Part shown: piece by piece, positions 1 through 27,307 of the stretch
Layout: each line of letters opens with the position of its first letter
Numbering within the stretch: position 1 is the stretch's first letter
DNA from: an uncultured Phycisphaerae bacterium
Lineage (GTDB): Bacteria > Planctomycetota > Phycisphaerae > Sedimentisphaerales > Anaerohalosphaeraceae
Direction of reading: 5' to 3'
DNA: 27,307 nucleotides
NCBI GenBank assembly: GCA_965369915.1
Contig: CBDUSK010000001.1
Span: forward strand, 1-27,307
Notes under the pieces: model-generated
What the model saw: only the letters and a program-made list of their open reading frames with translations
Database searches by the model: none
What the model was told of the DNA's origin: nothing
Position numbers and translations under genes: made by a program

Positions 1-2
1 CA

Positions 3-795: not shown

Positions 796-863
796 CGGAT
801 GTTTTGAATACAAAAACAATGTGTTTCTAAGTTAATAGTATCTGATTTTGAAGGTTATACAGT

Positions 864-1136: not shown

Positions 1137-1225
1137 CGCAAAAGAACAACGAAATTCTAATAAAAGTCTGGCCGGGAGAAAGGCAGAAAAATTCTACCCG
1201 GCAAGCGAAACGGCGGAGATAGATT

Positions 1226-3083: not shown

Positions 3084-3092
3084 GGAATCAAG

Positions 3093-5450: not shown

Positions 5451-5490
5451 GTATCGATTTAAAAGGGAGATTTTTACGAAAGGTCAAGTT

Positions 5491-6102: not shown

Positions 6103-6116
6103 CCAGGGCACAGAAG

Positions 6117-8454: not shown

Positions 8455-8515
8455 TCATTAAATTACGGTTAGCCGGCAGAACCGGCAAAAGAAAACGGAA
8501 GGTTAAGACGAGTTT

Positions 8516-9325: not shown

Positions 9326-9343
9326 CGCAAGAGGAAAACCCGT

Positions 9344-10345: not shown

Positions 10346-10385
10346 GCCCAAAGCACCGTGTTTTCTTTGCCGGTTAGTATCTGAC

Positions 10386-11060
10386 TTATATTTCCGGTTT
10401 AAGCCTGCTCACGGCCTGGTGCGCCAGGCGAGTCGGTTCCGGCAGCCGGTATTTCGTTGCACAGGTCAAGACGACCCTTATCGCATCTTTCAGAAGACAT
10501 TTATTTCCCACCGAGACGAACATGGGTCTTACATTTTTCCGAGTGCGCAGAACAGCTCCGACAGTTTGGCCCTTGTCTTTAAGCACAGAGTAATCTCCCT
10601 TTTCGATACCGACTTCGTCAAACGTGCCGATGAGCCTGCTTTTTGCGCAGCCGATGGCGGGCTTGTCGAAAAAAAGTCCAAGATGACAGGCCAGACCCAT
10701 TCGGCGCGGATGTGCGGAGCCCTGTCCGTCGATCATGAAAATATCCGGGACGGATCTAAGTTTTGACGCGGCTTTTATACAAACGGGTGCCTCTCGAAAG
10801 GAAAGCAGCCCGGGGATATAGGGAAAGGCAACGTCGGTTACGGCGTGTCTGGTTTCGACGACCTTCATATCCGGAAAGGCCAGTACGACGATGACCGCAC
10901 AGATCCTTTTTTTGTCTTTGCTGAACGCACAGTCGAGCCCGGCTATAAGCCGGGTGTTTTTTTCAAGTTTCTCAAAACGCACGCGTTCGGCAAGCAAGAT
11001 CTGAAGCTTTCTTGCCTGGTCATAAGACAGGTCCCAGTCGTGAAGTTGTTTTATATTCAT
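10386..11060 (-). CDS. nfi: Endonuclease V (deoxyinosine 3' endonuclease)
   Basis: AGLDCAF, FPYIPGLLSFREAP, IDGQGSAHPRRMGLACHLG, IGCAKSRL, YRLPEPTRLAH. Confidence 0.97.
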   Translation of the reverse strand: MNIKQLHDWDLSYDQARKLQILLAERVRFEKLEKNTRLIAGLDCAFSKDKKRICAVIVVLAFPDMKVVETRHAVTDVAFPYIPGLLSFREAPVCIKAASKLRSVPDIFMIDGQGSAHPRRMGLACHLGLFFDKPAIGCAKSRLIGTFDEVGIEKGDYSVLKDKGQTVGAVLRTRKNVRPMFVSVGNKCLLKDAIRVVLTCATKYRLPEPTRLAHQAVSRLKPEI

Positions 11061-11173
11061 GATAGCGGAAATTAAAGATTAGCTTTAATGGTTATATCAC
11101 GGCTGTTCGGGCCTGTCGACGATATAAAGCTGCAAGTTTCAGGCACAGAGTACAAAAACCGCCGTTAAAAAAT

Positions 11174-11204
11174 AGTTTACTTTGTTCTCAAGATATGATA
11201 CAAT
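11174..11204. promoter_or_regulatory. Candidate overlapping divergent sigma70 promoters for uvrA (+) and nfi (-)
   Basis: Plus strand: TTTACT (11176-11181), 17 nt, TACAAT (11199-11204), with TG at 11196-11197 as an extended -10. Minus strand: TTGTAT (11203-11198), 18 nt, TAAACT (11179-11174). Motif match only. Confidence 0.55.
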
Positions 11205-11215
11205 CGTAAAATCGG

Positions 11216-11240
11216 CTTATTGCAGAAATTGTGCAATAAG
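11216..11240. promoter_or_regulatory. Inverted repeat CTTATTGCA-N7-TGCAATAAG, candidate operator or 5'-UTR hairpin upstream of uvrA
   Basis: Perfect 9-bp arms at 11216-11224 and 11232-11240, flanked by the direct repeat TACAATCGTA at 11199-11208 and 11241-11250. The sequence pattern is certain; function is not. Confidence 0.55.
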
Positions 11241-11278
11241 TACAATCGTACTAACCGCAGGGAGCAGGTGTAAAAAAA

Positions 11279-14134: not shown

Positions 14135-14160
14135 AGTGTTAAACGCCCAAGGAGTAAAAA

Positions 14161-15228
14161 ATGGATTTTGAAACACTAAAGTGGATCGGTGACACAAAAG
14201 GCTCCCTGGAGCTTACGGACCAGAGGCTGCTTCCCGGGCAATACAAAAAGCTTCGGTGTGAAACCATCGAACAGCTTTATGATGCTATTTTGACGCTTGC
14301 GGTAAGAGGTGCTCCTGCGATCGGCGTCGCCGCGGGGTACGGCATCTGCCTTGCCATGCAAAGTTTTGTGGGCAACGGATCAAAGAATGCGGTATCACAT
14401 CTTGAAAAAAACGCAGACTATCTTGCCGGATCCCGCCCCACCGCGGTAAACCTTTTCTGGGCGCTGGAGAGGATGAAGACTTCCGCGAAAAAATTCATCG
14501 CCGAAAACACGGGCGCATCGGTTGCCGAGCTACGTCAGGCCCTGCTTACCGAAGCTCATGCCGTATGCAAAGAAGACCGGGACATGTGCAAGGCCATAGG
14601 GGTTAACGGCGAAAAATTCATCAGGGAAAACTCCGGGATACTTACCCATTGCAACGCCGGCGCTCTTGCAACTGCCGGGCAGGGGACGGCTCTTTCGCCG
14701 ATGTACGAAGCTTACGCAGGCGGCAGAAAGTTCAGGGTCTATGTCGATGAGACCAGGCCCTTATTGCAGGGTGCCCGCCTCACCGCGTGGGAACTTACCC
14801 GGGCGGGTATCGATGCGACATTGATCTGTGACAACATGGCCGGGGTCCTGATGAAACAGGGCAAGATCGACACCGTAATAACCGGTGCCGACCGGATCGC
14901 GGCCAACGGCGATACCGCCAACAAGATCGGAACGTTCAGTTTGAGCATCCTGGCTAAAGAACACGGCATACCGTTCTATATCGCTGCCCCTTCGAGCACA
15001 TTTGACCTTAAGATAAAGACAGGTGCCCAAATTCCGATCGAGCAAAGAAACGCCGACGAGATCACTTCGTTTGGGAAAACCAGGATTGCACCGAAGGATA
15101 TTAACGTTTATAATCCGGCGTTCGATGTGACGGACGCTGAGAACATAACCGCAATAATAACCGAAAAAGGTGTTATTGAAAAACCGGACACTGAAAAAAT
15201 CAAAAGTCACCTGAAAAAACGGCGATAA
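14161..15228 (+). CDS. mtnA: S-methyl-5-thioribose-1-phosphate isomerase
   Basis: DQRLLP, VRGAPAIG, SRPTAVNL, LTHCNAGALAT, ETRPLLQGARLTAWEL, GADRIAANGDTANKIGT, NPAFDVT. SD AAGGAG. Confidence 0.96.
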   Translation: MDFETLKWIGDTKGSLELTDQRLLPGQYKKLRCETIEQLYDAILTLAVRGAPAIGVAAGYGICLAMQSFVGNGSKNAVSHLEKNADYLAGSRPTAVNLFWALERMKTSAKKFIAENTGASVAELRQALLTEAHAVCKEDRDMCKAIGVNGEKFIRENSGILTHCNAGALATAGQGTALSPMYEAYAGGRKFRVYVDETRPLLQGARLTAWELTRAGIDATLICDNMAGVLMKQGKIDTVITGADRIAANGDTANKIGTFSLSILAKEHGIPFYIAAPSSTFDLKIKTGAQIPIEQRNADEITSFGKTRIAPKDINVYNPAFDVTDAENITAIITEKGVIEKPDTEKIKSHLKKRR

Positions 15229-15262
15229 ATACTAAGTCAATCGAATTTATGTAGGAATACAG

Positions 15263-16312
15263 ATGAAAGTTCTTTTTGATGTGGTACATCCTGCTCAGGT
15301 GCATTTTTTCAAAAACGCTATTGGTCTGTTAAAAGAGCGAGGCGACGAGGTGGTGGTAACTGCTCGCAAAAAGGATGTTACTATCGATCTTCTCAACACA
15401 CTGAACATAGAACATACTTGTATAAGCCGGAAAGGATCGAACCTTATCGCTATGGGCTTTGAGCTTCTTTGGCGTGACTTAAAGCTTATAAAGATCGTGC
15501 GCCGATTCAAGCCTGACGTAATGGTCGCACGCGTCGGTGTTTCAGTCGGACCAGTAGGAAAGCTTATGGGAATTCCAACAGTCGTATACGATGACATGGA
15601 ACACGCAAAGCTTCAGGGGGCAATCGGCATGACGTTCGCCACTTATATTTGTACGGGCCTGGGTTATTATCGTGATTTTGGCAAACGACACATAAGGTTT
15701 AGGGGTCCGCCCGTGCTTGCTTATATGGGGCCGAAATATTTCCAGCCTGACCCGAAACCTTTAAGACAAGCAGGTCTTGACCCCGACAAACCGTACATCT
15801 TTATAAGGACTGTATCGTGGGGTGCAAGTCATGATGTCGGGAGAAAAAGAAGCTCGGAAAATCGGATCACAAAAATTGTCGACAGACTTTCAAAGTTTGG
15901 CAGGATTGTCATAAGTTCAGAGGAATCGCTAAGCGGTGATTTTGCTCAGTACAACAACCCTGTTCCGGTCGAGAAGATGCACAGTCTTTTGGCTTTTGCG
16001 TCACTTTGTATTGTCGAAGGCGGAACCATGGCGGAGGAAGCGGCTACCCTTGGCGTTCCGGTTGTGTGTCTTGGCACGTACGACTTTGGTTACCTGCGTG
16101 CACTTGAGAACGAATACCAAATGATCTTCCGACCTGGGTCGATAGACAAGGCTGTAGATATTGCAGAAGAGCTTTTAAAGGATGCCGATACGTCCGAGAT
16201 ATGGCGAGAGAAACAGCAAAGGCTTCTTGCCGACAGCAACGATGTTACAGAGTTTATGGTTAAGATGATAAATCGTGCCGCTAGAGAGCATCCGGTCGAA
16301 AGAAAAAAGTAA
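15263..16312 (+). CDS. DUF354 / COG1817-type protein, predicted GT-B glycosyltransferase-like
   Basis: MKVLFDVVHPAQVHFFK..TARKKDVTIDLL, VVYDDMEHA, FIRTVSWGASHD, EGGTMAEEAATLGVP, recognised from memory of the family. Confidence 0.75.
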   Translation: MKVLFDVVHPAQVHFFKNAIGLLKERGDEVVVTARKKDVTIDLLNTLNIEHTCISRKGSNLIAMGFELLWRDLKLIKIVRRFKPDVMVARVGVSVGPVGKLMGIPTVVYDDMEHAKLQGAIGMTFATYICTGLGYYRDFGKRHIRFRGPPVLAYMGPKYFQPDPKPLRQAGLDPDKPYIFIRTVSWGASHDVGRKRSSENRITKIVDRLSKFGRIVISSEESLSGDFAQYNNPVPVEKMHSLLAFASLCIVEGGTMAEEAATLGVPVVCLGTYDFGYLRALENEYQMIFRPGSIDKAVDIAEELLKDADTSEIWREKQQRLLADSNDVTEFMVKMINRAAREHPVERKK

Positions 16313-16415
16313 AACCATACTGGAACTCAGTGTGAAGAACAAAAGATTACGAACGTATTTAGCAAAAATCACTGATACGCCGGTTTATTGCTGTTTAAGC
16401 GGCAGTAAAAAACAT

Positions 16416-16443
16416 TTGCAAAATTCGAGAAATGGACTAAACT
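16416..16443 (+). promoter_or_regulatory. Candidate sigma70 promoter for the glycan locus
   Basis: TTGCAA (16416-16421), 16 nt, TAAACT (16438-16443) in the 211-nt spacer before legB. SD GGAGG at 16511-16515. Confidence 0.3.
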
Positions 16444-16523
16444 AAACGAATCTAAACTGTGGTTTTTCAGGCACTTAAAGAGGCCTCAAAACCATGTAAG
16501 GTCTCTAAACGGAGGTTTGTATA

Positions 16524-17501
16524 ATGAAAGTTTTAGTAACGGGAGCCGGGGGCTTTATCGGTTCCCATCTTGTCGAGACACTTATCGAGCGAGGGTATGC
16601 GGTAAGAGCGTTTGTGAAATACAATTCCAGGAACGATTGGGGTTGGCTGGAGCAGATACAGGCTAAAAATAAAATTGAAGTAGTTTCTGGAAATATCCGC
16701 GATTATGATTTTGTATCGGATTCTATAAAGGGATGCGATGGGGTTTTTCATTTAGCAGCCCTTATAGGCATTCCGTATTCATATGTTTCGCCTCTTGCCT
16801 ATATCCAAACAAACATTGTTGGAACCTATAACATTCTCCAGGCTTCTAAGGAACACCAATTAGATAATATTCTTATTACATCTACGAGTGAGACTTATGG
16901 TACCGCACAATATGTTCCTATTGACGAAAGCCATCCAAAAGTCGGTCAGTCGCCTTATTCTGCTACAAAGATATCTGCAGATCAGTTGGCTATCAGCTAT
17001 CACAGGGCGTATGGGTTACCTGTAAAGATTGTCAGGCCCTTTAATACTTACGGCCCCCGCCAATCTGCCAGAGCTATCATTCCAACTATCATTACACAGC
17101 TTTTATCCGGCAAAAAAGAAATAGAACTCGGCGATTTATCTCCCACGCGGGATTTGCTGTTCGTAAAGGACACTGCCAATGGTTTTATAGAAATAGCTGA
17201 ATCTTCTAAGACAGCGGGGGAAGAAATAAATATAGCGACTCAGAGCGAAATATCGATGGGCGATTTAGCCCAAAAGTTAGTTAATATGATCAACCCGAAA
17301 GCGGCAGTAATCAAAGATGCCAAAAGAATTCGGCCCGAAAACAGCGAAGTCGAAAGATTGCTGGGGAGCAACGAGAAGATAAAAAACCTAACTAACTGGC
17401 AACAAAAATATGATCTTGATAAAGGCTTAAGCGAAACCGTGGAGTGGTTCAAAAACAATAAGACCTTGAAGTTGTATAAGCCGGATATTTATAATGTGTA
17501 G
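16524..17501 (+). CDS. legB: LegB-type NAD-dependent NDP-GlcNAc 4,6-dehydratase (extended SDR)
   Basis: TGAGGFIGSHL, YNSRNDWGWL, FHLAALIGIPYSY, STSETYGTA, YSATK, RPFNTYGPRQSARA. Confidence 0.85.
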   Translation: MKVLVTGAGGFIGSHLVETLIERGYAVRAFVKYNSRNDWGWLEQIQAKNKIEVVSGNIRDYDFVSDSIKGCDGVFHLAALIGIPYSYVSPLAYIQTNIVGTYNILQASKEHQLDNILITSTSETYGTAQYVPIDESHPKVGQSPYSATKISADQLAISYHRAYGLPVKIVRPFNTYGPRQSARAIIPTIITQLLSGKKEIELGDLSPTRDLLFVKDTANGFIEIAESSKTAGEEINIATQSEISMGDLAQKLVNMINPKAAVIKDAKRIRPENSEVERLLGSNEKIKNLTNWQQKYDLDKGLSETVEWFKNNKTLKLYKPDIYNV

Positions 17502-18600
17502 GAACATATTCTTGGATGCCCCTAATGTAGGGGGGCTGGAAAAGGAATACCTTAACAAGGCTATCGATACCGGTTTTGTGTCCACTGTAGGACCATTTGT
17601 TCCGGAATTTGAGGAAAAACTGGCTGAATTCTTAGGTGTCGAAAAAGCCGTTTCGACACAAAGCGGAACCGCGGCACTGCACACCTCACTTTATGAATTA
17701 GGTATTGAAGAGGGAGACGAAGTAATTGTGCCGGCTCTTACGTTCGTGGCTACTGTGAACCCAATACTTTATGTTGGAGCAAAACCGATTTTTGTAGACG
17801 TAGATATTAAAAGCTGGAACATTGATCCTGGAGAAATCCAAAAGCATATTACCAAAAATACTAAAGCTATAATACCTGTTCATCTGTTTGGAAATCCTTG
17901 TGATATGGATGTGATAATGGATATTGCCCGAAAACACGAGCTATATGTTATAGAAGATGCAACGGAAAGTTTGGGGGCTAAATATAAAGGCAAATATACC
18001 GGAACTTTTGGAGATCTAGGTTGTTTAAGTTTTAACGGCAATAAAATCATTACCACCGGCGGAGGCGGCATGATAGTGGGCAGTGACCCGAAAAGACTGG
18101 ATCATGTGAAATTTCTTGTAAATCAGGCAAGGGATGAGTCCAAGGGCTATTTCCATCCAGAGATGGGCTTTAATTACAGGATGACGAACATAGAGGCTGC
18201 TATGGGACTTGCTCAAATGGAAAAGCTCGATGGCTTTTTAGACAAAAAAAGGACTTTCAACAAAATCTATAAGGAAGAGTTAAATGATTTGGGATCTATT
18301 TCTTTTCAGGCCGAATGCGAAGGCGCAGAAAGCTGCTGGTGGCTGACTTGTATTGTTTTTGAAAACGAAATGGGCATAGCCGGGCTGCAAGGAAAATTAA
18401 AAACATATGGAATTCCTACTCGAAGGGTATTTGTGCCTGCAACGGACTTTCCTCCATATAAAGATTACAAAGAAGCTGAACTTGCAAATTCTTTTTCTAT
18501 TTACGAAAGAGGATTATGTTTGCCGTGTTCAACACGGAATTCTGAAGACGATATATATTATGTTTGCGAAAAATTCAAAAAACTGGTTAGCAAGAATTGA
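17494..18600 (+). CDS. legC: LegC-type PLP-dependent sugar aminotransferase (DegT/DnrJ family)
   Basis: GFVSTVGPFV, TFVATVN, IEDATESLG, SFNGNKIITTGGGG (PLP Lys), GFNYRMTNIEAA. Overlaps legB by 8 nt. Confidence 0.85.
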   Translation: MCRNIFLDAPNVGGLEKEYLNKAIDTGFVSTVGPFVPEFEEKLAEFLGVEKAVSTQSGTAALHTSLYELGIEEGDEVIVPALTFVATVNPILYVGAKPIFVDVDIKSWNIDPGEIQKHITKNTKAIIPVHLFGNPCDMDVIMDIARKHELYVIEDATESLGAKYKGKYTGTFGDLGCLSFNGNKIITTGGGGMIVGSDPKRLDHVKFLVNQARDESKGYFHPEMGFNYRMTNIEAAMGLAQMEKLDGFLDKKRTFNKIYKEELNDLGSISFQAECEGAESCWWLTCIVFENEMGIAGLQGKLKTYGIPTRRVFVPATDFPPYKDYKEAELANSFSIYERGLCLPCSTRNSEDDIYYVCEKFKKLVSKN

Positions 18601-18602
18601 TT

Positions 18603-19238
18603 ATGAAGAAGAATATTATTTTAATCGGCGGCGGCGGACACTGTAAGTCATGCATAGACGTGATAGAATCAGGGGATGAATTTAAAGTAGTGGGCATAGT
18701 TGACAAAAAAGAGAAAATGTCCCTGAAAGTATCGGGCCACGAGATCATAGCCTGCGACGAAGATTTACCTGAATTAGTCAAGGAATATGAATATTATCTA
18801 ATAACGATCGGACAAATAAAAAGTGCCTTCAAAAGAGTTAAGAAATTCGAATTCATAAAAGAATTAGGGGGAAAGTTTCCGACAATCATATCTCCTTTAT
18901 CATACATTTCGAAGTCAGCTGTTGTTGGAGAAGGAACTATTGTAATGCACAATGCCATTATAAACACCGAGGCATGTGTAGGGAAAAACTGCATAATCAA
19001 TACAGCGGCTATCATTGAACATGAATCGCGAATTATGGACCATTGCCATATATCAACGGGTGTTGTCATAAATGGAGAAAACTTCATAGGCGAGAGCACT
19101 TTTATTGGAAGCAACAGTGTTACCGCAAACAATATTACCATAGAAAGCAATACGGTGCTTGGTGCGGGTTCTTTTGTCAGTAGATCACTCGAAGAAAGCG
19201 GAACTTATGCCGGAAACCCGGCGAGAAAAATTGGATAA
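18603..19238 (+). CDS. PglD/NeuD-family hexapeptide acetyltransferase, probable amino-sugar N-acetyltransferase (alternative TTG start 18597)
   Basis: LIGGGGHCKSC, LITIGQI, left-handed beta-helix repeats with IIEHE, YAGNPA. Confidence 0.85.
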   Translation: MKKNIILIGGGGHCKSCIDVIESGDEFKVVGIVDKKEKMSLKVSGHEIIACDEDLPELVKEYEYYLITIGQIKSAFKRVKKFEFIKELGGKFPTIISPLSYISKSAVVGEGTIVMHNAIINTEACVGKNCIINTAAIIEHESRIMDHCHISTGVVINGENFIGESTFIGSNSVTANNITIESNTVLGAGSFVSRSLEESGTYAGNPARKIG

Positions 19239-19240
19239 GC

Positions 19241-20245
19241 ATGAGTAAGACCTTTATTATAGCTGAGGCCGGAGTTAATCATAACGGCAGTATTGAGTTG
19301 GCCACCCGGCTTATTGATGTTGCGGTTGATGCCGGTGCTGATGCGGTAAAATTTCAAACTTTTAAAGCAGAAAACATTATAAGTAAACACGCGCCAAAGG
19401 CAGATTATCAGCAGGAAACAACAGACAAGGGCGAATCCCAGCTTGAAATGGTCAGAAAGCTGGAACTTGGTGAAGCTGAGCATAAAACGCTGATAGAACA
19501 TTGCAAAGAAAAAGGCATTATGTTCATGTCGGCGCCTTTTGATCTGGAAAGCATAGACCTACTTTCCGAACTTGGACTTGAAATCATGAAAATTCCTTCC
19601 GGAGAAATAACGAATTTACCTTATTTAAGAAAAATCGGTAGTTTGGGTAAACGTATTATTATGTCTACAGGGATGGCAGATTTAAAGGAAATAGAGGATG
19701 CACTTAATATTTTACTGCAATCCGAAACAGATAGAACCAATATAACAATACTACATTGCAATACCGAATATCCTACACCTTTTGAGGACGTGAATTTGTC
19801 GGCTATGCTTACTATCAAAGATGCGTTGAATGTGAACGTGGGCTACTCCGACCATACGCTTGGAATAGAAGTGGCAATTGCAGCAGCGGCTTTGGGAGCC
19901 GACGTGATCGAGAAACATTTTACTCTCGATAAGACTCTGCCTGGACCGGACCACAAGGCGTCTTTGGAGCCGGGTGAACTTAAAGCCATGGTCCAGGCGA
20001 TAAGAAATATTGAAAGATCACTTGGAGACGGGATAAAAAAACCAAGTTCCAGCGAGATAAAAAATATAGCGGTTGCACGGAAGAGTATAGTTGCCAAAAA
20101 ATGCATCAATAAAGGTGAAGTATTTACTACTGACAACATTACAAGTAAGCGGCCGGGGACGGGAGTTAACCCAATGGAATGGGATAACGTAATAGGAAAG
20201 GCAGCGAAAGGAGATTTCGCAGAAGACGAGATGATAGAATTATGA
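19241..20245 (+). CDS. neuB: Canonical NeuB-family nonulosonic acid synthase, probably N,N'-diacetyllegionaminate synthase (LegI)
   Basis: IIAEAGVNHNG, AVKFQ, KIPSGE, MSTG, HCNTEYPT, GYSDHT, IEKHFT, GPDH, C-terminal SAF domain with KRPG. Confidence 0.92.
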   Translation: MSKTFIIAEAGVNHNGSIELATRLIDVAVDAGADAVKFQTFKAENIISKHAPKADYQQETTDKGESQLEMVRKLELGEAEHKTLIEHCKEKGIMFMSAPFDLESIDLLSELGLEIMKIPSGEITNLPYLRKIGSLGKRIIMSTGMADLKEIEDALNILLQSETDRTNITILHCNTEYPTPFEDVNLSAMLTIKDALNVNVGYSDHTLGIEVAIAAAALGADVIEKHFTLDKTLPGPDHKASLEPGELKAMVQAIRNIERSLGDGIKKPSSSEIKNIAVARKSIVAKKCINKGEVFTTDNITSKRPGTGVNPMEWDNVIGKAAKGDFAEDEMIEL

Positions 20246-21429
20246 AAAGAAAGATTTGCATTGTTACCGGCTCAAGAGCAGAGTATGGCCTTTTAAGGCC
20301 TCTGCTTAAAGAGGTAAGTGTAGATCCCGAGTTGACACTTCAGCTTGTGGTAACGGGAATGCATCTTTCAGAAGAATTTGGTTCGACATACAAAGAAATA
20401 GAAAGCGACGGTTTTAACATTGATGAAAAGATTGACATAGGACTCCATTCAGACACACCTACTGGAATTGCTGAGTCCATGGGATTGGCTATGAGTGGAT
20501 TTGCCAAGGCATATGATCGTGTCCGGCCGGACATCGTTGTTGTTTTAGGTGATCGATTCGAGATTTTTATTGCCGCCGCCGCCGCTACAGTAAGCAGGTG
20601 CCATATTGCACATCTCCACGGGGGAGAGCGTACCGAGGGTGTTATTGATGAAGTGTTTCGTCATTCCATTACAAAAATGAGCCACCTGCACTTTACTTCT
20701 ACACAAGAGTATCACAGGAGAGTTGTTCAATTAGGAGAAAACCCTAACAGGGTCTTTAATGTTGGCGCTATCGGGTTGGATAATATCAAGGAACTGAAAT
20801 TGTTATCCAGGAAAGAGCTGGAAAAGAAACTGAATTATAAGTTCGGCAGCAAAAACCTACTGGTAACTTTCCACCCCGTTACGTTGGAAGATAATACTTC
20901 AGGAGAACAATTTCAAATTTTACTTGATGTCTTAAATGGTTTAAAGGACACAAATATTATTTTTACGAAATCAAATGCTGATACGGGAGGAAGAGCGATC
21001 AACAACATGATCGATGAGTACACGTTAAACAACTCTGAAAACACCCTGTATTTTACTTCCATGGGCCAGCTTTTATATTTGTCGACATTGCAGTTTGTTG
21101 ATGCGATGGTAGGAAACTCGTCGAGTGGTATCATAGAGGCTCCGAGCTTTAAGATCGGAACAATTAATATTGGAGATCGGCAGAAGGGAAGGATAAAGGC
21201 TGAAAGTATAATAAATTGCCAGCCGTTAAAGGATGATATTAACAAGGCTTTTCAAAAGCTCTATTCTAAAGAATTCCAGAAAATCCTGAAAAACGTTGAA
21301 AATCCATATGGCACCGGAGGAGCGGCAAAAGAGATAAAGGAAATACTGAAAAAATATGATCTGTGCGATGTTTTAAAGAAAAACTTCTATGATATAAATT
21401 TTGATATAGGAGATATTGATGTTGCTTAA
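20242..21429 (+). CDS. neuC: Hydrolysing NDP-diNAc-bacillosamine / UDP-GlcNAc 2-epimerase (NeuC/LegG)
   Basis: KICIVTGSRAEYG, TGMHLS, VLGDRFE, HLHGGE, RHSITKMSH, VTFHPVT, GNSSSG, RQKGR, NPYG. ATGA overlap with neuB. Confidence 0.92.
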   Translation: MKRKICIVTGSRAEYGLLRPLLKEVSVDPELTLQLVVTGMHLSEEFGSTYKEIESDGFNIDEKIDIGLHSDTPTGIAESMGLAMSGFAKAYDRVRPDIVVVLGDRFEIFIAAAAATVSRCHIAHLHGGERTEGVIDEVFRHSITKMSHLHFTSTQEYHRRVVQLGENPNRVFNVGAIGLDNIKELKLLSRKELEKKLNYKFGSKNLLVTFHPVTLEDNTSGEQFQILLDVLNGLKDTNIIFTKSNADTGGRAINNMIDEYTLNNSENTLYFTSMGQLLYLSTLQFVDAMVGNSSSGIIEAPSFKIGTINIGDRQKGRIKAESIINCQPLKDDINKAFQKLYSKEFQKILKNVENPYGTGGAAKEIKEILKKYDLCDVLKKNFYDINFDIGDIDVA

Positions 21430-22498
21430 AGATATTCTGATCCATAAGTCAGATTCTACAAAAAAAACGCTAAAAAGACTGGACAAAACAGCCGTCAAAG
21501 CTTTGCTTGTTGTAGACAAAGACAACAAACTGCTTGGAGCGATCAGCGACGGGGACATCAGACGCCATATACTAAAAGGCAATAGCCTTGAGGGCGATAT
21601 CAGCGAGATATACAACAAAAGTCCCATTTATATACGAAAAGAAGAACTCTCGATGGAATCGGTAAAAAAGCTGCTTGTCCGGTACAAGATAGAATTGATA
21701 CCGGTTTTAGACAATGAACATAAGGTTGTAGAGTATATAACATGGGACCAATTATTCCCTGAATCAGAGCAACCCCCGTTCAAAAAGAGCCGGATAGATA
21801 TTCCGGTTGTCATTATGGCCGGCGGAAAAGGATCACGCCTGGAGCCGTTTACTAAAATTCTCCCCAAGGCATTGATCCCGGTTGGCGATAAGCCTATTAT
21901 CGAAATGATTATAGATGAATTCAAACAGCAGGGAGTAGAAAAATTTTATCTGACACTAAACCACAAAAGCGAGATGATAAAAGCATACTTTAAGGGCATT
22001 GAAAAAGAGTATAAAGTAAACTATATCAAAGAAAAAACTTTTCTCGGAACAGCAGGCAGTTTGAAACTACTTGAAAACAAAATCAGCGATACTTTTATTG
22101 TTTCAAATTGTGACATTATTGTTAAAGCAAATTTTGAAAATGTACTGGCGCTCCATCAGGAACAAAAAGCCTCGTTAACGATCCTCTCTTCTGTTCAGCA
22201 TTATGAAATTCCATATGGAGTGATAAATCTTAAAGAGGGTGGGGAAGTTGCGAATATCCTTGAGAAACCGGAATATACATTTACGATTAATACCGGTGTA
22301 TATGTTCTAAATAAAGACACCTTAGATTTTATTCCGGCCGACTCACATATGGATATGACCGAGTTGATCAAGATCCTGGCCAAAAACGGTAAAAAAATTC
22401 TCACGTATCCCGTGAATGAAAAAGAATATTTAGATATTGGCCAATGGAAAGAATATAAAAAAGTCTTACAATATTTCCGTGAACAGGAAACAAAGTAA
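21419..22498 (+). CDS. CBS-domain sugar-1-phosphate nucleotidyltransferase (PtmE/LegX-like, probable GlcN-1-P guanylyltransferase)
   Basis: N-terminal CBS pair (GAISDGDIRR), MAGGKGSRLEPFTKILPKAL, LGTAGSL, SNCDI, DIGQ. ATG 21419 follows AGGAGA; alternative TTG at 21416. Confidence 0.85.
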   Translation: MLLKDILIHKSDSTKKTLKRLDKTAVKALLVVDKDNKLLGAISDGDIRRHILKGNSLEGDISEIYNKSPIYIRKEELSMESVKKLLVRYKIELIPVLDNEHKVVEYITWDQLFPESEQPPFKKSRIDIPVVIMAGGKGSRLEPFTKILPKALIPVGDKPIIEMIIDEFKQQGVEKFYLTLNHKSEMIKAYFKGIEKEYKVNYIKEKTFLGTAGSLKLLENKISDTFIVSNCDIIVKANFENVLALHQEQKASLTILSSVQHYEIPYGVINLKEGGEVANILEKPEYTFTINTGVYVLNKDTLDFIPADSHMDMTELIKILAKNGKKILTYPVNEKEYLDIGQWKEYKKVLQYFREQETK

Positions 22499-22522
22499 TT
22501 TAACAATGGCAGGGCCGTTTTC

Positions 22523-23599
22523 ATGAAGAAAAAACAGGAACCATATATTATTGGAGAAACCGCATATAATCACGAAGGAGACGCTGGCTACTTGTATAAA
22601 ATGATAGAGGAGATAGTCGAAATCGGATTAAATGCGGTAAAGTTTCATTTGTTATTGAATCCAGAAAGTTACTTACAGAAAAAACATCCCTTGATTTCCG
22701 AGATCAAAAAATGGATTTTTGATAAAAAACAGTGGGATGCAATTATTAACCATTCGAATAAAAATGGACTGGACGTAGTCACGTTATGCGATGATGTTGA
22801 GTCTTTGGAGTTTATTAATAAAAGCGGATTGGATGTATACGCTGTGGAGTTGCACGCCACCGGACTGAATGACTGGTTCTTGCTTGAAGAAGCGACGAAT
22901 TTTAACGGGCCGGTTTTTTTGGGGGTTGGCGGTTCGTCAATCGACGAAATTGCATACGCAGTGGATTTTCTGAAAAGCAGGCAGAAGAGTAAGATTGTTT
23001 TGATGTACGGGTTCCAGAACTATCCGACTGATTACGCTAACATTAATCTTTCCAAAATGCTCAAGATGGCTAACTTATTCGATCTGCCCGTAGGATATGC
23101 GGACCACACGGCATTTGATGATTCAAACAACGAAGTTGTCAGCACTATGGCTGCGATGATGGGCTTTAATATTTTAGAAAAACACTACACACCGGATTTC
23201 GGTAAGAAACGAATAGATTATCATGCCGCAGTGGGAAAAGAACAGATGTTGAGGATAAAAGAATTGATGAAATTGGCATTGATGGTTTATGGCAACGGCG
23301 AGATAAAAATGTCGACACCTGAACTGGAATACGGCAATACGGGTCCCATGAAAAAAGCCATAGTTGCAAAAAGAAATATCAAAAGAGGAGAAAAACTTTC
23401 GCTGGAGAACCTCTGCTTTAAAAGAACCCAACAGCAAAGCCCTTTAAAGCAGAACCAGTTTTTGCAGTTAATCGGGCTCAAAGCAGATAAAGACATTGAT
23501 GAAGATGAAATAATTGATTTCTCCAAAGTCCACTATGAGTTTAAAAAAGCCGACCTGGAAAAGTTTACATATTTAAACGATGCCGGAGAGCAGCAATGA
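22523..23599 (+). CDS. Second, strongly divergent NeuB-family protein (TIM barrel plus SAF domain)
   Basis: IIGETAYNHEG, AVKFH, NYPT, GYADHT, LEKHYT, KKAIVAKRNIKRGE, FKR. The fold is clear; several catalytic-site motifs differ from the upstream NeuB. Confidence 0.85.
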   Translation: MKKKQEPYIIGETAYNHEGDAGYLYKMIEEIVEIGLNAVKFHLLLNPESYLQKKHPLISEIKKWIFDKKQWDAIINHSNKNGLDVVTLCDDVESLEFINKSGLDVYAVELHATGLNDWFLLEEATNFNGPVFLGVGGSSIDEIAYAVDFLKSRQKSKIVLMYGFQNYPTDYANINLSKMLKMANLFDLPVGYADHTAFDDSNNEVVSTMAAMMGFNILEKHYTPDFGKKRIDYHAAVGKEQMLRIKELMKLALMVYGNGEIKMSTPELEYGNTGPMKKAIVAKRNIKRGEKLSLENLCFKRTQQQSPLKQNQFLQLIGLKADKDIDEDEIIDFSKVHYEFKKADLEKFTYLNDAGEQQ

Positions 23600-24396
23600 A
23601 GATAGGTTTTTTGATCACGGCAAGATTAAAGTCCTCAAGATTGCCCCTGAAAATACTGAAAGATCTAAACGGCAGGACGGTTACAGAAAGGATCATAGAT
23701 AGGTGCAAAGAGGTCCACGGTGTTTCGCAGATCGTTCTTTGTACTTCACCTAATCCCCAGGACAAAGCCCTGGCAGAAGTCGCCAAAAAGAATGGGATAT
23801 CATGTTTTTTAGGGGATGAGGATGATGTTCTCAAGAGGCTTTTGGATGCTTCAATTTTGCATGAGCTGGATTATTTTATTGGTATTACCGCGGACAATCC
23901 CCTGTTTTCGATTTATTATTCAAATTTAATAGCGGATATGATAAACACCGAAGGCCATGATTTTATTAAAGTGCAGGGCCTTCCGCTTGGAGCGGCCACA
24001 TACGGGATGAACGTCAAGGCTTTGGCCACGGTGTGCGAGATCAAAACCATAGTCGATACGGAGATATGGGGATATCTTATCGATCGGCCGGAAGTTTTCG
24101 ATATCAAAACGATCCAGGCCAAAGCGGCACTTAACAGGCCTGAGCTTAGGTTTACGCTGGATTATGAAGAAGACTATGAATTCTTAAACAATATCTATAC
24201 AAATGTTCCTTTTGAAAAGGTGATCAAACTGGACGATGTGATGGACTACCTGAACAAGAATCCCGAGGTAGTAAGGATAAACCAAAAGTGTGTTCAGCGA
24301 GACCTGGACCAGGAGACAAAAGATAAAATAAACGCCCTTTATCTCGAACGAACTGACGAGGTCAGAGAAATAAAAACGAGAATCTATAAAAAATGA
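23596..24396 (+). CDS. SpsF-type acylneuraminate / 3-deoxy-ulosonate cytidylyltransferase family protein
   Basis: ITARLKSSRLPLKIL, GDEDDVLKR, ITADNPL, RFTLDYEED. ATGA overlap with the upstream gene. Confidence 0.85.
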   Translation: MKIGFLITARLKSSRLPLKILKDLNGRTVTERIIDRCKEVHGVSQIVLCTSPNPQDKALAEVAKKNGISCFLGDEDDVLKRLLDASILHELDYFIGITADNPLFSIYYSNLIADMINTEGHDFIKVQGLPLGAATYGMNVKALATVCEIKTIVDTEIWGYLIDRPEVFDIKTIQAKAALNRPELRFTLDYEEDYEFLNNIYTNVPFEKVIKLDDVMDYLNKNPEVVRINQKCVQRDLDQETKDKINALYLERTDEVREIKTRIYKK

Positions 24397-25622
24397 AGCC
24401 GAAAATAGTTTTTATCCCTACACACTGGTATTTATCCAATCCTGTTTTTTTTAGTGTGGCTAAAGAATTTAGGGAGAGATTCCACACGGTTTACTTCAAT
24501 ACGAAGGACCCTGTATTTTCCAGGCACAGCGAAAAAAACATTAAAAAAGAAGAAGTTCTCGAATATTTTGACGAGTACGAGGTAATAGATGAATCGCCCC
24601 TTTTAAGCAAAAGCCGCGGTGTAATGGGAAAGATGCGTTGCTTCAAAGACCAAAAGCCCCGGCTGGAGAGGCAGTTAAAACGACTTGCACCAGATGCAAT
24701 CGTATCTACGAGCGATTCAAGCGGGTATATAAACAGGTTCTGCAATATCTGGGCGGAGAAGAAAAAGATCCCCTTCATAGTGATCCAGCCGTCTTTTATA
24801 AAGGTTAAAAGGGAAAAGAACCCGCTGAAAGAACGCATAGGATATTTGCTTTTTAACGTACTGCTGGACATGCCGTTCTGTCGAAAGCAGAAAGTTTTTG
24901 GAAATGAACGTTCGGGCAATTACCTTTTTGTATGGGGGGAGTTTTTTAAAAATTTCTACAAGGGACTTGAGGTCGAAAAGCATACTTACGTTACGGGCAA
25001 CCCGGCTTTTGACAGGATCCTGAAAACAGCATCTAACGCACACATCCCGGAAAATATAGGTGTCAATATTCCTCACGGAAAGCCGATAGTAACGATATGT
25101 ACCCAGCCGCTTGAAACGCTGCTCAGTGAAAGAGCCTGCGGACTGGTGAATGATTTCTACAGATTTGCCATCAAGGAAAATCCGGACCTGTTTTTTATTG
25201 TTAAGATCCATCCAAGAGAAAATATAGAAAAATATAACGCCATCTTAGAGGGCATAGACACAAAGAATTATATTATTGCAAAGGATGTTAACCTGTATGA
25301 AGTATTTAAGGCAACGGATCTGCAAATGTCGGTTTCGTCGTATACTTCTTTTGAAGCAGTAGTTTTCGGGATACCCATTGTTGTGATAAACCCTCAAAAC
25401 CTTGTAACGCTTCCGGACCACTTCAATAACGAGATCGAGCTGAAAGCAACTACGACAAATGAACTTAAAAAAAATCTTGTAAAGGCTCTTACCGAAGAAT
25501 ACCGGCAGGAGTTTAACGTAAAACGACAAAAATACCTTGAATCAAGGATCGGCTATCTCGACGGAAATAGCAGTGAAAGAACAGCAAAAAAAATTGAGGA
25601 TATTATTATGCTGAAAAAATGA
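24393..25622 (+). CDS. GT-B fold transferase of unassigned family, candidate nonulosonate (sialyl-type) transferase
   Basis: FVWGE, VTGNPAFD, IVKIHPRE (HP motif), SSYTSFEAVVFGIPIVVIN, DGNSSER. ATGA overlap with the cytidylyltransferase. Confidence 0.6.
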   Translation: MKPKIVFIPTHWYLSNPVFFSVAKEFRERFHTVYFNTKDPVFSRHSEKNIKKEEVLEYFDEYEVIDESPLLSKSRGVMGKMRCFKDQKPRLERQLKRLAPDAIVSTSDSSGYINRFCNIWAEKKKIPFIVIQPSFIKVKREKNPLKERIGYLLFNVLLDMPFCRKQKVFGNERSGNYLFVWGEFFKNFYKGLEVEKHTYVTGNPAFDRILKTASNAHIPENIGVNIPHGKPIVTICTQPLETLLSERACGLVNDFYRFAIKENPDLFFIVKIHPRENIEKYNAILEGIDTKNYIIAKDVNLYEVFKATDLQMSVSSYTSFEAVVFGIPIVVINPQNLVTLPDHFNNEIELKATTTNELKKNLVKALTEEYRQEFNVKRQKYLESRIGYLDGNSSERTAKKIEDIIMLKK

Positions 25623-25765
25623 GTTGATTTTAAATGTTATTAAACGTATTTTGTAGAAGAAAGCTTTGATGGATTTCTAGTAAAATAAGAATAAAGGTTC
25701 TAGTGTTTTGGATTTTCTTACCTTAGGTATAATTATTATGTTTTTAAACATACTGATAGGATGAT

Positions 25766-26494
25766 ATGAATAGAATAAAAACGGCTGTAATTCTAGCGGG
25801 GGGTGCAGGTACAAGAATGAATCCTTGTACTGGAAAGAAGCTAAGACCAGACAGACCGAAACCGATGATTGAAATAGCTGGCAAGCCAATACTTCACTGG
25901 ATTCTCGAGAAATGGTTGTCTGCCTACGAGATTAGCCATGTCGTTTTTGGAGTTGCGTATAAAAAAGAGTTCCTTATCGACTATTTCACAACAAATAATA
26001 TGGGTATGAAAATCGATTTTAGTGAGCACTCTGTTGAGGGGGGAACAGGTGAAGGATTCAAAAAGGCCATAAGTAGATTTGTGAATGACGAAGTTTTCCT
26101 TGCAATGAATGGCGATGAATTGACAAATTTAGACATTAACAAATTAGTTGAATCTCATGTTCAAAACGATGGCATTGCAACGATAGTTACGGCTCCTCTT
26201 AAAGCATCATATGGTGTATTGGCAATAGATGAACATAATACAATAACAGGCTTTCACGAAAAACAAGCATGCCATGATATTCCTGTAAGTGCAGGCATAT
26301 ATGTGTTTAACCGAGAAATTGTTGATTATATACCCTCTACAGGATCAATAGAAAGAGTAACTTTTCATGATCTTGCTAAAAAGAAATTATTGAAGGCATA
26401 TCGATTACCTATTAATAAAAAATGGTTTACAGTGAACAATCTGAAGCAGCTTGAAATAACAAAGAAAGAAATAGTTACTTTATGGAGTACTTAG
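25766..26494 (+). CDS. Sugar-phosphate nucleotidyltransferase (NTP_transferase family)
   Basis: AVILAGGAGTRM, PKPMIEIAGKPIL, GGTG, MNGDELT, YGVL, SAGIYVF. Confidence 0.88.
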   Translation: MNRIKTAVILAGGAGTRMNPCTGKKLRPDRPKPMIEIAGKPILHWILEKWLSAYEISHVVFGVAYKKEFLIDYFTTNNMGMKIDFSEHSVEGGTGEGFKKAISRFVNDEVFLAMNGDELTNLDINKLVESHVQNDGIATIVTAPLKASYGVLAIDEHNTITGFHEKQACHDIPVSAGIYVFNREIVDYIPSTGSIERVTFHDLAKKKLLKAYRLPINKKWFTVNNLKQLEITKKEIVTLWST

Positions 26495-26495
26495 A

Positions 26496-27307
26496 ATGGA
26501 AAAAGTATTAATTACAGGAATAACCGGTTTCATTGGTGGGGAACTAGCCCATAAACTTATATCAAAATACGAAGTGCATGGAATTGCAAAACAATGTAGA
26601 TCAAGAAACACAAGCTCTCTTAAAGATATTGTCAAAGAAGTCATCGTGCACGAAGTAGATATAACAGATTATATGTCAATAGAAAGCCTGATAAACAGAA
26701 TAAAACCAGATAAAATAGTACATCTTGCGGCTTTATCTCCTGTCAGAGCTTCCTTCGAACACCCATTGGACTATAATCGAGTGACAGCAACAGGAACGAT
26801 TCATATAGCACATGCGCTGCATAGCCTTAGTGATTATAAAAACCGAAGACTCATTGTTGCGTCAACAGCAGAAGTATATGGGCTACAACCAAAAGACGAA
26901 CCCTATACAGAGAATTTGGCACTTTTTCCCTCCAGTCCTTATGCATGCGCAAAAGCATATAGTGATTTATATATGAGAATGATGATAAATGTATATGATA
27001 TTAATTGTGTTATCTTGAGATGTGTAAATACTTATGGCAGGAAATACGACAAAAGTTTTTATATCGAATATATTATTAATAAAATGCTGAAGAGCGAAGA
27101 AATATATATAGGTGCGCCCAATTCAATCAGGGATTATATGTATGTTGATGATCACGTTAATGCCTATTTATTAGCAATAGAATCGCCAAATGCAAAAGGG
27201 CATGTTTTCAATGTATCTACTGGTTTTGGTATAAGCAACAAAGATACTGCTTTAAAAATTGCTGAAATTATTGGATACGATAAGAACAGATTACACCTTG
27301 GAGAGTA
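26496..27307 (+). CDS. Extended-SDR NDP-sugar 4,6-dehydratase/epimerase (GDP-mannose / dTDP-glucose dehydratase-like), truncated by the window end
   Basis: Absent from the ORF track because it has no stop. My translation from ATG 26496 (GGAG at 26484-26487): MEKVLITGITGFIG, HLAALSPV..SF, ASTAEVYG, YACAK, LRCVNTYG, RDYMYVDD, FNVSTG. Open to 27307. Confidence 0.9.
   Translation, partial: MEKVLITGITGFIGGELAHKLISKYEVHGIAKQCRSRNTSSLKDIVKEVIVHEVDITDYMSIESLINRIKPDKIVHLAALSPVRASFEHPLDYNRVTATGTIHIAHALHSLSDYKNRRLIVASTAEVYGLQPKDEPYTENLALFPSSPYACAKAYSDLYMRMMINVYDINCVILRCVNTYGRKYDKSFYIEYIINKMLKSEEIYIGAPNSIRDYMYVDDHVNAYLLAIESPNAKGHVFNVSTGFGISNKDTALKIAEIIGYDKNRLHLGE

What the first reader, a model, noticed from the sequence alone, without database searches (positions are those of the whole stretch)
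22523..23599. Top candidate: NeuB paralog with a systematically rebuilt PEP site, suggesting a new reaction or a non-catalytic partner
Seen, by manual alignment with the canonical NeuB at 19241: KFQ to KFH, SAPFD to TLCDD, KIPSGE to ELHATG, MSTG to LGVG, HCNTEYP to YGFQNYP, GYSDH to GYADH, and a loop after KF about 13 aa shorter. Retained: the Glu of the AE/GE motif, both metal histidines (DHT, EKH), YP, and the SAF domain with its KR arginine. Known, from recall of Neisseria meningitidis NeuB: K129, S132, S154, S213 and T110 hold PEP; H215 and H236 bind Mn; R314 binds the sugar. All three serines are lost, K129 becomes Glu, and new His residues appear at the 55 and 131 positions, while the gene stays full length and translationally coupled to its neighbours. 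Inference: this looks like repurposing rather than decay. Options are a metal-dependent aldolase using pyruvate or another non-PEP donor, a tailoring enzyme for the nonulosonate, or a heterodimer subunit that changes the specificity of the first NeuB. I cannot confirm the subfamily is undescribed.
Basis: partly seen in the sequence, partly recalled or inferred. Interest (0 to 1): 0.8.

Follow-up and report, generated by a model that had tools for sequence, protein, structure and literature searches.

The report
Rebuilt NeuB paralog in legionaminic operon
A look-alike of sialic-acid synthase has lost its phosphoenolpyruvate pocket yet is as strongly conserved as its working neighbours, and it sits as a fixed pair with the sugar-activating enzyme in legionaminic-acid operons of many phyla, which points to an undescribed late step in making this surface sugar.

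Summary
Window 22523-23599 encodes a 358-aa NeuB-fold protein (X). The metal histidines, the sugar-side residues and the SAF arginine are kept.

This is repurposing, not decay:
- dN/dS is 0.04-0.11, equal to the canonical LegI next door.
- 52 positions are at least 97% conserved, and many are fixed to a residue different from the one in LegI.
- The AlphaFold model has pLDDT 94.

X is not unique to this window. It belongs to a large uncharacterised clade found in several bacterial phyla and in archaea, and always in a genome that also has a canonical NeuB.

Its fixed partner is not the first NeuB. It is the overlapping downstream SpsF-type cytidylyltransferase (Y). X and Y were together in 22 of 22 X-anchored loci and 61 of 61 Y-anchored loci. 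Y is the only candidate CMP-legionaminate synthetase in the genomes checked.

New clue: a YhcH/DUF386 sialate "openase" lies beside X-Y in 9 loci or is fused to X, in genomes that lack an aldolase partner. Another relative is fused to a polysialyltransferase-like domain.

Best reading (0.4): X is a metal-dependent, PEP-independent enzyme that acts on open-chain legionaminic acid before CMP activation.

The scan has flagged this same family twice before on other DNA. No dedicated family model and no paper describing it was found.

The parts
22523..23599 (+). X: a divergent NeuB-family protein (TIM barrel plus SAF domain). The PEP-phosphate pocket is rebuilt; the metal site and the sugar side are kept.
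23596..24396 (+). Y: an SpsF-type cytidylyltransferase (CTP_transf_3, 52.5 bits). It overlaps the X stop codon (ATGA). It is the only candidate CMP-nonulosonate synthetase in the genome.
   Evidence: pairing
24393..25622 (+). GT-B protein with a partial match to the BFO_1060 / surface-carbohydrate family. It is TagF-like and a candidate nonulosonate transferase. By ORF coordinates its start overlaps the Y stop by 4 nt.
   Evidence: orthologue kept in L008 and L003
21416..22498 (+). PtmE-like nucleotidyltransferase (CBS plus NTP_transferase) for supply of the GDP-sugar precursor. It is the usual upstream neighbour of X.
19241..20245 (+). Canonical LegI/NeuB synthase (TIGR03569, 523 bits, above the cut-off). 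All PEP-site residues are present.
20242..21429 (+). LegG/NeuC hydrolysing 2-epimerase.
16524..19238 (+). LegB dehydratase (16524-17501), LegC aminotransferase (17494-18600) and NeuD/LegH acetyltransferase (18597-19238).
15263..16312 (+). DUF354 protein at the head of the cluster. It is conserved with the cluster in L008 (72% identity).

Best explanation
X is a catalytically active, metal-dependent member of the NeuB fold that no longer uses phosphoenolpyruvate. It works late in the legionaminic acid (Leg) pathway.

Proposed order of steps:
1. The canonical LegI makes Leg.
2. X binds the free sugar in its open-chain 2-keto-acid form. For this it uses the retained NeuB sugar side: E12, Y167, D232, R301 and the H195/H221 metal, with K40 for the carboxylate.
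3. X hands its product to the SpsF-type cytidylyltransferase Y, which is encoded by the overlapping next gene.
4. The adjacent GT-B then uses the CMP-sugar.

The most self-contained chemistry for such a site is reversible aldol cleavage and re-addition at C3-C4. That would be an aldolase-type isomerisation, such as editing the configuration at C4, or a pyruvate-dependent re-synthesis pulled forward by CMP activation.

Shown: the fold, the loss of the phosphate pocket, the conserved new residues, purifying selection, the obligate pairing with Y, co-occurrence with a canonical NeuB, and the association with a sialate openase.

Inferred: that X is catalytic, that free open-chain Leg is its substrate, and the type of reaction.
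For: - The residues that hold the PEP phosphate in NmNeuB (K129, S132, S154, S213, N184) are replaced, as is E134. The carboxylate lysine, the metal histidines and the sugar-side residues are kept.
- All changed residues sit at the C-terminal ends of barrel strands 2-7 in a model with pLDDT 94.4 and a NeuB/PseI fold.
- 52 positions are at least 97% conserved in 149 family members. The new invariants include H42, Y50, H55, E109, H111, N116, D117, Q165, N203, R230 and Y270. D194, H195, H221 and D232 are invariant across 98 diverse members.
- dN/dS is 0.04-0.11, the same as LegI, LegG and PtmE.
- X and Y are adjacent in 22 of 22 evaluable X-anchored genome loci. An X-type gene is present in 61 of 61 Y-anchored metagenome loci.
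- Y is the only non-KdsB CTP_transf_3 in three Flavobacteriaceae genomes and in the window's genome. An SpsF-type enzyme acts after Leg synthesis in B. subtilis (PMC7439481).
- A canonical NeuB is present in every genome checked.
- DUF386/YhcH lies beside X-Y in 9 of 26 genome loci and is fused to X in P0159/L037. This family is an 'openase' that supplies the open form of sialic acid to an aldolase (PMC8141875).
- That DUF386 gene is the only one in 5 of 5 genomes checked. Two of these have only one DHDPS-family gene (presumably DapA) and one has none, so the usual aldolase partner is missing.
- A triple fusion of canonical NeuB, a non-canonical NeuB domain and CTP_transf_3 (P0168) has its domains in the proposed pathway order.
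Against: - No activity has been measured.
- I had no model coordinates, so I could not check the geometry of the new His/Glu cluster.
- DUF386 is absent from the window's own genome, which is 85% complete. It is present in only 2 of the 80 loci closest to the window's Y, so the openase clue comes from more distant relatives.
- DUF386 could instead serve Y by supplying the right anomer.
- Strict adjacency, overlapping stop and start codons, and fusions with a transferase-like domain (P0127) or with CTP_transf_3 (relatives that keep K109) would also fit a structural partner.
- A newly invariant R230 could in principle bind a phosphate in a new way.
- 4-epi-legionaminic acid is rarely reported, whereas X is common.
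Confidence: 0.4

Rival explanations
1. X is a non-catalytic or only ligand-binding partner of the cytidylyltransferase Y, and perhaps of the transferase. In this reading it is a NeuB-derived subunit that binds the nonulosonate and delivers it, sets Y's specificity, or scaffolds a complex for synthesis, activation and transfer.
For: - X and Y are an obligate pair in both directions.
- The X stop and Y start overlap as ATGA.
- Related non-canonical NeuB domains are fused to CTP_transf_3.
- An X-type domain is fused to a polysialyltransferase-like domain and followed by Y.
- The Y subfamily is divergent (52.5 bits to CTP_transf_3).
Against: - The metal ligands and E12/E219 are invariant.
- A set of new polar residues at the catalytic face is fixed across phyla. 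Binding alone rarely requires this.
- dN/dS equals that of the enzymes next door.
- B. subtilis SpsF works with a canonical SpsE and no X-type protein, so SpsF-type enzymes do not as a class need such a partner.
Confidence: 0.25
2. X acts earlier, on the free hexose made by LegG (2,4-diacetamido-2,4,6-trideoxy-D-mannose). It would be a metal-dependent epimerase or isomerase of the open-chain aldose, and would change what LegI condenses.
For: The aldose-binding half of the NeuB site is what X retains: E12, Y167, D232, R301 and the metal His pair. An openase could equally open a hexose ring (PMC8141875 discusses such partnerships).
Against: X tracks Y, not LegG or LegI. The carboxylate lysine K40 is kept. 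In the triple fusion the non-canonical domain lies between the synthase and the cytidylyltransferase.
Confidence: 0.1
3. X is still a condensing synthase, but with a different donor (pyruvate, oxaloacetate or another phosphorylated donor bound in a new way) or a different acceptor. It would make a second ulosonic acid, which Y activates.
For: The NeuB fold, the metal site and the SAF arginine are kept. There are new invariant basic and polar residues: R230, H42, H55 and H111. In L035 a related fusion protein coexists with a separate canonical NeuB and NeuA pair.
Against: - In the genomes checked, Y is the only candidate enzyme to activate the LegI product. A separate X/Y sugar would therefore leave Leg unactivated.
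- K129 is replaced by Glu and all three phosphate-binding serines are lost.
- X was found only in genomes that also have a canonical NeuB.
Confidence: 0.1
4. X forms a heterodimer with LegI and alters its specificity.
For: NeuB enzymes are domain-swapped dimers in which the SAF domain caps the partner's active site (established knowledge of 1XUZ). X keeps the SAF domain and its arginine. Both genes are in one operon here.
Against: LegI is not a fixed neighbour. In L011 it is on another contig, and in L017, L025 and L030 the order differs. The conserved partner is Y. An inactive cap would not explain why X's own barrel active site is so conserved.
Confidence: 0.05

Closest known systems
PEP-dependent nonulosonate synthases NeuB / LegI / PseI (N. 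meningitidis NeuB 1XUZ/2WQP; C. jejuni PseI 8H2C; the window's own LegI at 19241-20245)
   Same: The same two-domain fold, TIM barrel plus SAF (TM 0.78-0.80). The same metal histidines, E25/E234 equivalents, carboxylate lysine, Y186, D247 and SAF arginine. The same operon.
   Different: All phosphate-binding residues and E134 are replaced (K129E, S132A, S154G, S213A, N184Q, E134G). Q55 and G131 become His. The loop between strand 2 and helix 2 is about 14 residues shorter. Scores are far below the equivalog cut-offs. X forms a separate clade, nested beyond a K/H/S/D grade.
B. subtilis SpsE/SpsF pair of the sps legionaminic acid pathway (PMC7439481)
   Same: A NeuB-family gene next to an SpsF-type cytidylyltransferase in a Leg pathway. 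Y's best solved relative is an SpsF-like cytidylyltransferase (6OEW).
   Different: SpsE (1VLI) keeps the canonical K-x-x-S-x-E, S-T-A-G and S-D-H motifs and is the only NeuB in that pathway. X lacks these motifs and always comes in addition to a canonical synthase.
YhcH (NanQ) openase plus NanA aldolase of sialic acid catabolism (PMC8141875)
   Same: A DUF386 protein is encoded beside, or fused to, an enzyme that should need the open-chain nonulosonate.
   Different: The setting is biosynthetic, not catabolic. The partner has a NeuB fold with a metal site, not a Schiff-base (DHDPS-family) aldolase. Three of the five genomes checked have no NanA candidate. The window's own genome has no DUF386.
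C. jejuni PtmF (Cj1330), which occupies the same operon slot between PtmE and LegF
   Same: The position between the PtmE-type nucleotidyltransferase and the cytidylyltransferase.
   Different: PtmF is a Gfo/Idh/MocA oxidoreductase (PMC4481668). Locus L001 carries X as well as PtmF/PtmA-like genes. They are not homologous.

Membership tests
Pfam PF03102 NeuB / PF08666 SAF (superfamily level) | Profile match above the gathering score | tested here: met
   NeuB 107.8 bits (cut-off 22.1); SAF 27.7 bits (cut-off 21)
NeuB/LegI/PseI PEP-dependent nonulosonate synthase (TIGR03569, TIGR03586) | Equivalog model score above the curated cut-off | tested here: not met
   155 against 399.65, and 105.6 against 340.25. 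The neighbouring LegI scores 523.
NeuB/LegI/PseI PEP-dependent nonulosonate synthase | TIM barrel plus C-terminal SAF/AFP-like domain | tested here: met
   AF2 model with pLDDT 94.4. Best PDB matches are NmNeuB (TM 0.78) and PseI (TM 0.80).
NeuB/LegI/PseI PEP-dependent nonulosonate synthase | Two metal-binding histidines (Nm H215, H236) | tested here: met
   H195 and H221, invariant in 98 diverse relatives
NeuB/LegI/PseI PEP-dependent nonulosonate synthase | PEP-binding residues K129, S132, S154, S213, N184 (phosphate) and E134 | tested here: not met
   These are E109, A112, G134, A193, Q165 and G114. The replacements are fixed in the family.
NeuB/LegI/PseI PEP-dependent nonulosonate synthase | PEP-dependent condensation with release of phosphate | not testable with these tools
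   Needs an enzyme assay.
SpsE-type Leg synthase (B. subtilis, 1VLI) | Sole NeuB of its pathway, with canonical active-site motifs | tested here: not met
   1VLI shows K-I-A-S-Y-E, S-T-A-G and S-D-H. X lacks them and co-occurs with a canonical NeuB.
PtmF (Cj1330) of the Campylobacter Leg pathway | Gfo/Idh/MocA oxidoreductase fold | tested here: not met
   PMC4481668, Table 5. X has a NeuB fold. L001 has both X and PtmF-like genes.
Pyruvate-dependent aldolases: class I NanA/DHDPS, or class II HpaI/HpcH ('works like' only) | Homology to either aldolase family | tested here: not met
   No Pfam or NCBIfam match other than NeuB/SAF. Structural neighbours after NeuB are DAHP and KDO8P synthases. Whether X works like an aldolase is untested.

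The most novel reading that the evidence does not exclude
X founds a new reaction class in the NeuB fold. It would be a metal-dependent, phosphate-free aldolase-type isomerase that opens legionaminic acid at C3-C4 and re-closes it. Its product would be a stereoisomer such as 4-epi-legionaminic acid, for which I found no described biosynthetic enzyme. The dedicated SpsF-type cytidylyltransferase would then capture that isomer. If so, many 'legionaminic acid' operons of environmental bacteria and archaea would make a different sugar from the one currently predicted.
Probability: 0.15. Interest if true: 0.8.

Novelty: new variant of a known kind. Interest (0 to 1): 0.62.

Why it matters
Legionaminic-acid clusters are currently annotated as complete with six or seven known enzymes. 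Here a seventh or eighth gene is as conserved as the known enzymes. It is present from Planctomycetota and Flavobacteriaceae to Bacillota, Campylobacterota and methanogens, and it is annotated everywhere as a second "N-acetylneuraminate synthase" or "SpsE". It cannot bind PEP in the known way.

If it is catalytic, the end product of these operons, or the route to it, is mis-predicted. The NeuB fold would also gain a new reaction.

If it is a partner of the cytidylyltransferase, it would be a clear case of an enzyme paralog recruited as a subunit of the next enzyme in the pathway.

Cultured carriers make the question directly testable: Kriegella aquimaris DSM 19886, Flagellimonas ochracea, Oceanihabitans sp. 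and Methanocalculus chunghsingensis.

Tried and rejected
1. **X as the PtmF orthologue.** X occupies the same slot as Cj1330. Rejected: PtmF is a Gfo/Idh/MocA oxidoreductase, and L001 has X plus PtmF/PtmA-like genes.
2. **X as one of the A. baumannii Ela or Aci tailoring enzymes.** Rejected: ElaA and ElaC are NAD(P)-dependent enzymes and ElaB is a cytidylyltransferase.
3. **X as an SpsE type.** Rejected: SpsE has canonical motifs.
4. **A canonical LegF elsewhere in the genome that would free Y for another role.** Not found. The other CTP_transf_3 hits are KdsB, GlmU and MobA. Three Flavobacteriaceae genomes hold only KdsB and Y.
5. **X without any canonical NeuB.** Not found. The one locus without a nearby LegI (L011) has canonical NeuB genes on other contigs.
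6. **Phylum-wide survey.** 0 of 400 sampled genomes of the window's phylum carry X at E <= 1e-45. This shows patchy distribution but gave no material for comparison. The PF03102 survey could not separate X-type from canonical hits.
7. **Reciprocal search with a 14-sequence Y alignment.** It failed for lack of conserved stretches. A 5-sequence alignment worked.
8. **Geometry of the new residues.** It could not be examined because model coordinates are not exposed.
9. **Literature searches.** Searches for a described NeuB-like partner of a cytidylyltransferase, and for 4-epi-legionaminic acid biosynthesis, found nothing relevant.

Full report
**What is there**

Window 16524-25622 is a one-strand legionaminic acid (Leg) cluster with these genes, in order:
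- LegB, LegC and a NeuD/LegH acetyltransferase
- a canonical LegI (19241-20245; TIGR03569 at 523 bits, above its cut-off)
- LegG/NeuC
- a PtmE-like nucleotidyltransferase (CBS plus NTP_transferase)
- the finding's ORF, X (22523-23599, 358 aa)
- a divergent CTP_transf_3 protein, Y (23596-24396)
- a GT-B protein with a partial match to the BFO_1060 / surface-carbohydrate family (24393-25622)

The X stop and Y start overlap as ATGA. By ORF coordinates Y and the GT-B gene overlap by 4 nt. A 24-nt spacer precedes X.

The cluster has 39-42% GC, against 50-52% for the housekeeping genes upstream. None of 400 sampled genomes of the same phylum carries an X-type gene. The cluster therefore looks like an acquired island.

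**Check of the observation**

X matches Pfam NeuB and SAF. It reaches only 155 and 106 bits against the NeuB and PseI equivalog models, whose cut-offs are 400 and 340.

I aligned X to the neighbouring LegI and to N. meningitidis NeuB.

| NmNeuB residue | X residue |
|---|---|
| K129 | E109 |
| G131 | H111 |
| S132 | A112 |
| E134 | G114 |
| S154 | G134 |
| N184 | Q165 |
| S213 | A193 |
| Q55 | H42 |

The loop after the KF(H) motif is about 14 residues shorter.

Kept residues are E12 (E25), K40 (K53), Y167 (Y186), H195 (H215), E219/H221 (E234/H236), D232 (D247) and K300-R301 (R314). T110 is kept here as T87 but varies in the family.

An AlphaFold model built on 98 relatives has mean pLDDT 94.4. 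It places every changed residue at the C-terminal end of barrel strands 2-7, which is the catalytic face. Its best structural matches are NmNeuB and PseI, with TM 0.78-0.80 at about 20% identity.

**Not decay**

In 149 family members, 52 positions are at least 97% conserved. About 20 of these are fixed to a residue different from the one fixed in LegI: A14, H42, Y50, H55, E109, H111, N116, D117, G137, G163, Q165, A193, N203, R230, A236, Y270/G271, K277, A279 and T302.

Across 98 diverse relatives, P168, D194, H195, H221 and D232 are invariant.

Pairwise dN/dS for X is 0.04-0.11. That is the same as LegI (0.05-0.14), LegG and PtmE in the same genome pairs.

**How big the family is**

- The word-indexed search returned 788 proteins. 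Many are 66-77% identical to X, and sources name them only "N-acetylneuraminate synthase family protein", "sialic acid synthase SpsE" or, wrongly, "N,N'-diacetyllegionaminic acid synthase".
- The exhaustive search returned 174 clusters (at 50% identity) at E <= 1e-30.
- A tree rooted on canonical LegI shows stepwise remodelling. First comes a grade that keeps K129, S132 and Asp but already has H111, Q165 and A193. Many of these are fused to CTP_transf_3. Then comes a large clade with Glu at the K129 position. Nested inside that clade is the KxH subclade, which contains X.
- X-type genes occur in Planctomycetota, Aerophobetes, Pseudomonadota, WOR-3 and Flavobacteriaceae. The last group includes cultured Kriegella aquimaris DSM 19886, Flagellimonas ochracea and Oceanihabitans.
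- The archaeon Methanocalculus chunghsingensis has an X-type gene at 58% identity.
- Genes at about 30% identity occur in Lachnospiraceae, Tissierellales, Lutibacter and Arcobacter.

**The fixed partner is the cytidylyltransferase**

- In all 22 X-anchored genome loci with enough flanking sequence, a Y-type gene lies next to X. In L015 and L016 one ORF separates them. In L025 and L030 the order is Y then X.
- In the reciprocal test, 61 of 61 Y-anchored metagenome loci with at least 600 nt upstream contain an X-type gene. In 58 it lies directly upstream, in two downstream, and in one 2.7 kb away.
- Canonical LegI, LegG, LegB/C and PtmE are nearly always in the same cluster, although the N-acyl genes vary.
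- The one locus without a nearby LegI (L011) has canonical NeuB genes on other contigs.
- Y is the only CTP_transf_3 besides KdsB in three Flavobacteriaceae genomes. In the window's genome the other hits are KdsB, GlmU and MobA.
- Y keeps the N-terminal R-x-x-S-x-R-L-P-x-K motif and the D-x-P motif. Its best solved relative is an SpsF-like cytidylyltransferase, 6OEW.
- In B. subtilis an SpsF-type enzyme is needed after Leg has been made (PMC7439481).

Y is therefore most likely the CMP-Leg-type synthetase of these clusters, and X is an extra, obligate companion.

**What X is not**

- It is not PtmF, which holds the same operon slot in Campylobacter but is a Gfo/Idh/MocA oxidoreductase (PMC4481668). 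L001 has both.
- It is not one of the Ela enzymes.
- It is not SpsE, whose structure 1VLI shows the canonical K-x-x-S-x-E, S-T-A-G and S-D-H motifs.

**New clues from fusions and neighbours**

- P0159 (L037, a complete 1.96-Mb genome) is an X-type protein fused to a DUF386 domain. It lies next to Y inside a Leg cluster.
- Free-standing DUF386 genes at 129-149 bits lie directly after Y or X in L014, L015, L016, L018, L020, L025, L026 and L031.
- DUF386/YhcH is a metal-dependent sialate anomerase. Its physiological role is to give the aldolase NanA the open form of its substrate, and it is "almost always" found together with that aldolase (PMC8141875).
- In 5 of 5 genomes checked, the DUF386 in the Leg cluster is the only one in the genome. 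Two of those genomes have a single DHDPS-family gene and one has none, so there is no NanA for it to serve.
- P0127 is a polysialyltransferase-like domain fused to an X-type domain and followed by Y.
- P0168 is a fusion of a canonical NeuB, a non-canonical NeuB domain and CTP_transf_3.

All of this places X at the late stage of free sugar, activation and transfer. The openase link argues that X handles the open-chain nonulosonate.

The caveat is that DUF386 is absent from the window's own genome, which is 85% complete. It is also rare among the closest relatives, present in 2 of 80 loci.

**Mechanism**

X keeps the half of the NeuB site that holds the N-acyl sugar, the metal and the carboxylate lysine. 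It has lost the phosphate pocket and gained E109, H111, H42 and H55.

That pattern is what one would expect for binding the 2-keto-acid end of a nonulosonate, or pyruvate, rather than PEP. This step is inference.

For a 3-deoxy-2-keto acid, the chemistry that needs no further cofactor is enolisation at C3 with retro-aldol and aldol at C3-C4. Two outcomes are possible:
- editing the C4 stereocentre, with Y capturing one isomer;
- a pyruvate-dependent synthesis pulled forward by CMP activation.

I give 0.4 to [quoted passage not shown]. Within that, I give about 0.15 to a C4-epimerase-type reaction.

| Rival reading | Confidence |
|---|---|
| Non-catalytic partner of Y | 0.25 |
| Action on the free hexose | 0.10 |
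| A condensing synthase with another donor | 0.10 |
| A heterodimer with LegI | 0.05 |

**Novelty**

No Pfam or NCBIfam model separates this clade. No solved structure has its signature. The held literature yielded no description of it.

Two earlier follow-ups of this scan, on an Omnitrophota genome and a Thermoplasmata genome, reached the same core description: an uncharacterised paralog with a rebuilt pocket, fixed to a cytidylyltransferase. The family is therefore not new to the scan.

This report adds the reciprocal pairing statistics, the selection analysis, the stepwise phylogeny, the DUF386 openase link and the transferase fusion.

Noticed in passing
window 16001-27307 against 1-16000: GC drops from 50-52% to 39-42% at the start of the Leg cluster. 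0 of 400 genomes sampled from the same phylum carry an X-type gene, and same-family genomes lack a canonical NeuB. The whole cluster looks horizontally acquired. L008 (a Planctomycetota MAG) carries the same cluster at 68-84% protein identity.
   Followed up: partly
L015:11034-12404 and the same position in L016: A 456-aa ORF with no Pfam match is inserted between X and Y in two Flavobacteriaceae loci. Its function is unknown. It could be a transferase.
   Followed up: no
L001:11844-13629: A Gfo/Idh/MocA gene and a short-chain dehydrogenase gene lie directly after Y. This domain pair matches both Campylobacter PtmF/PtmA, assigned to precursor supply in the Campylobacter Leg pathway (the ORF table in PMC4481668 lists PtmF only as an oxidoreductase and PtmA as a flagella modification protein), and A. 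baumannii ElaA/ElaC, proposed to epimerise C8 of CMP-Leg (PMC13656337). The two assignments in the literature are hard to reconcile.
   Followed up: no
P0168 (L033:2696-5587); P0264; P0186 (L035:10001-11770): These are multi-domain proteins that join non-canonical NeuB domains to other domains. P0168 has a canonical NeuB and CTP_transf_3 (963 aa). P0264 has a xylose-isomerase-like TIM barrel and CTP_transf_3 (899 aa). P0186 has CTP_transf_3 alone (about 580 aa). In L035 the fusion protein sits beside citrate-lyase/succinyl-CoA-ligase-like genes and a separate canonical NeuB/NeuA pair.
   Followed up: partly
window 24393-25622: This GT-B protein matches only the C-terminal half of the BFO_1060 glycosyltransferase model (100.6 bits against a cut-off of 200) and TIGR04396. 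Its orthologues give weak Glyphos_transf (TagF-like) hits.
   Followed up: no
window 7144-8454 and 9344-10345: The first is an LpxC-FabZ fusion protein. The second is a Gfo/Idh/MocA gene directly after lpxA. Both are ordinary features of some Gram-negative phyla and are unrelated to the finding.
   Followed up: no
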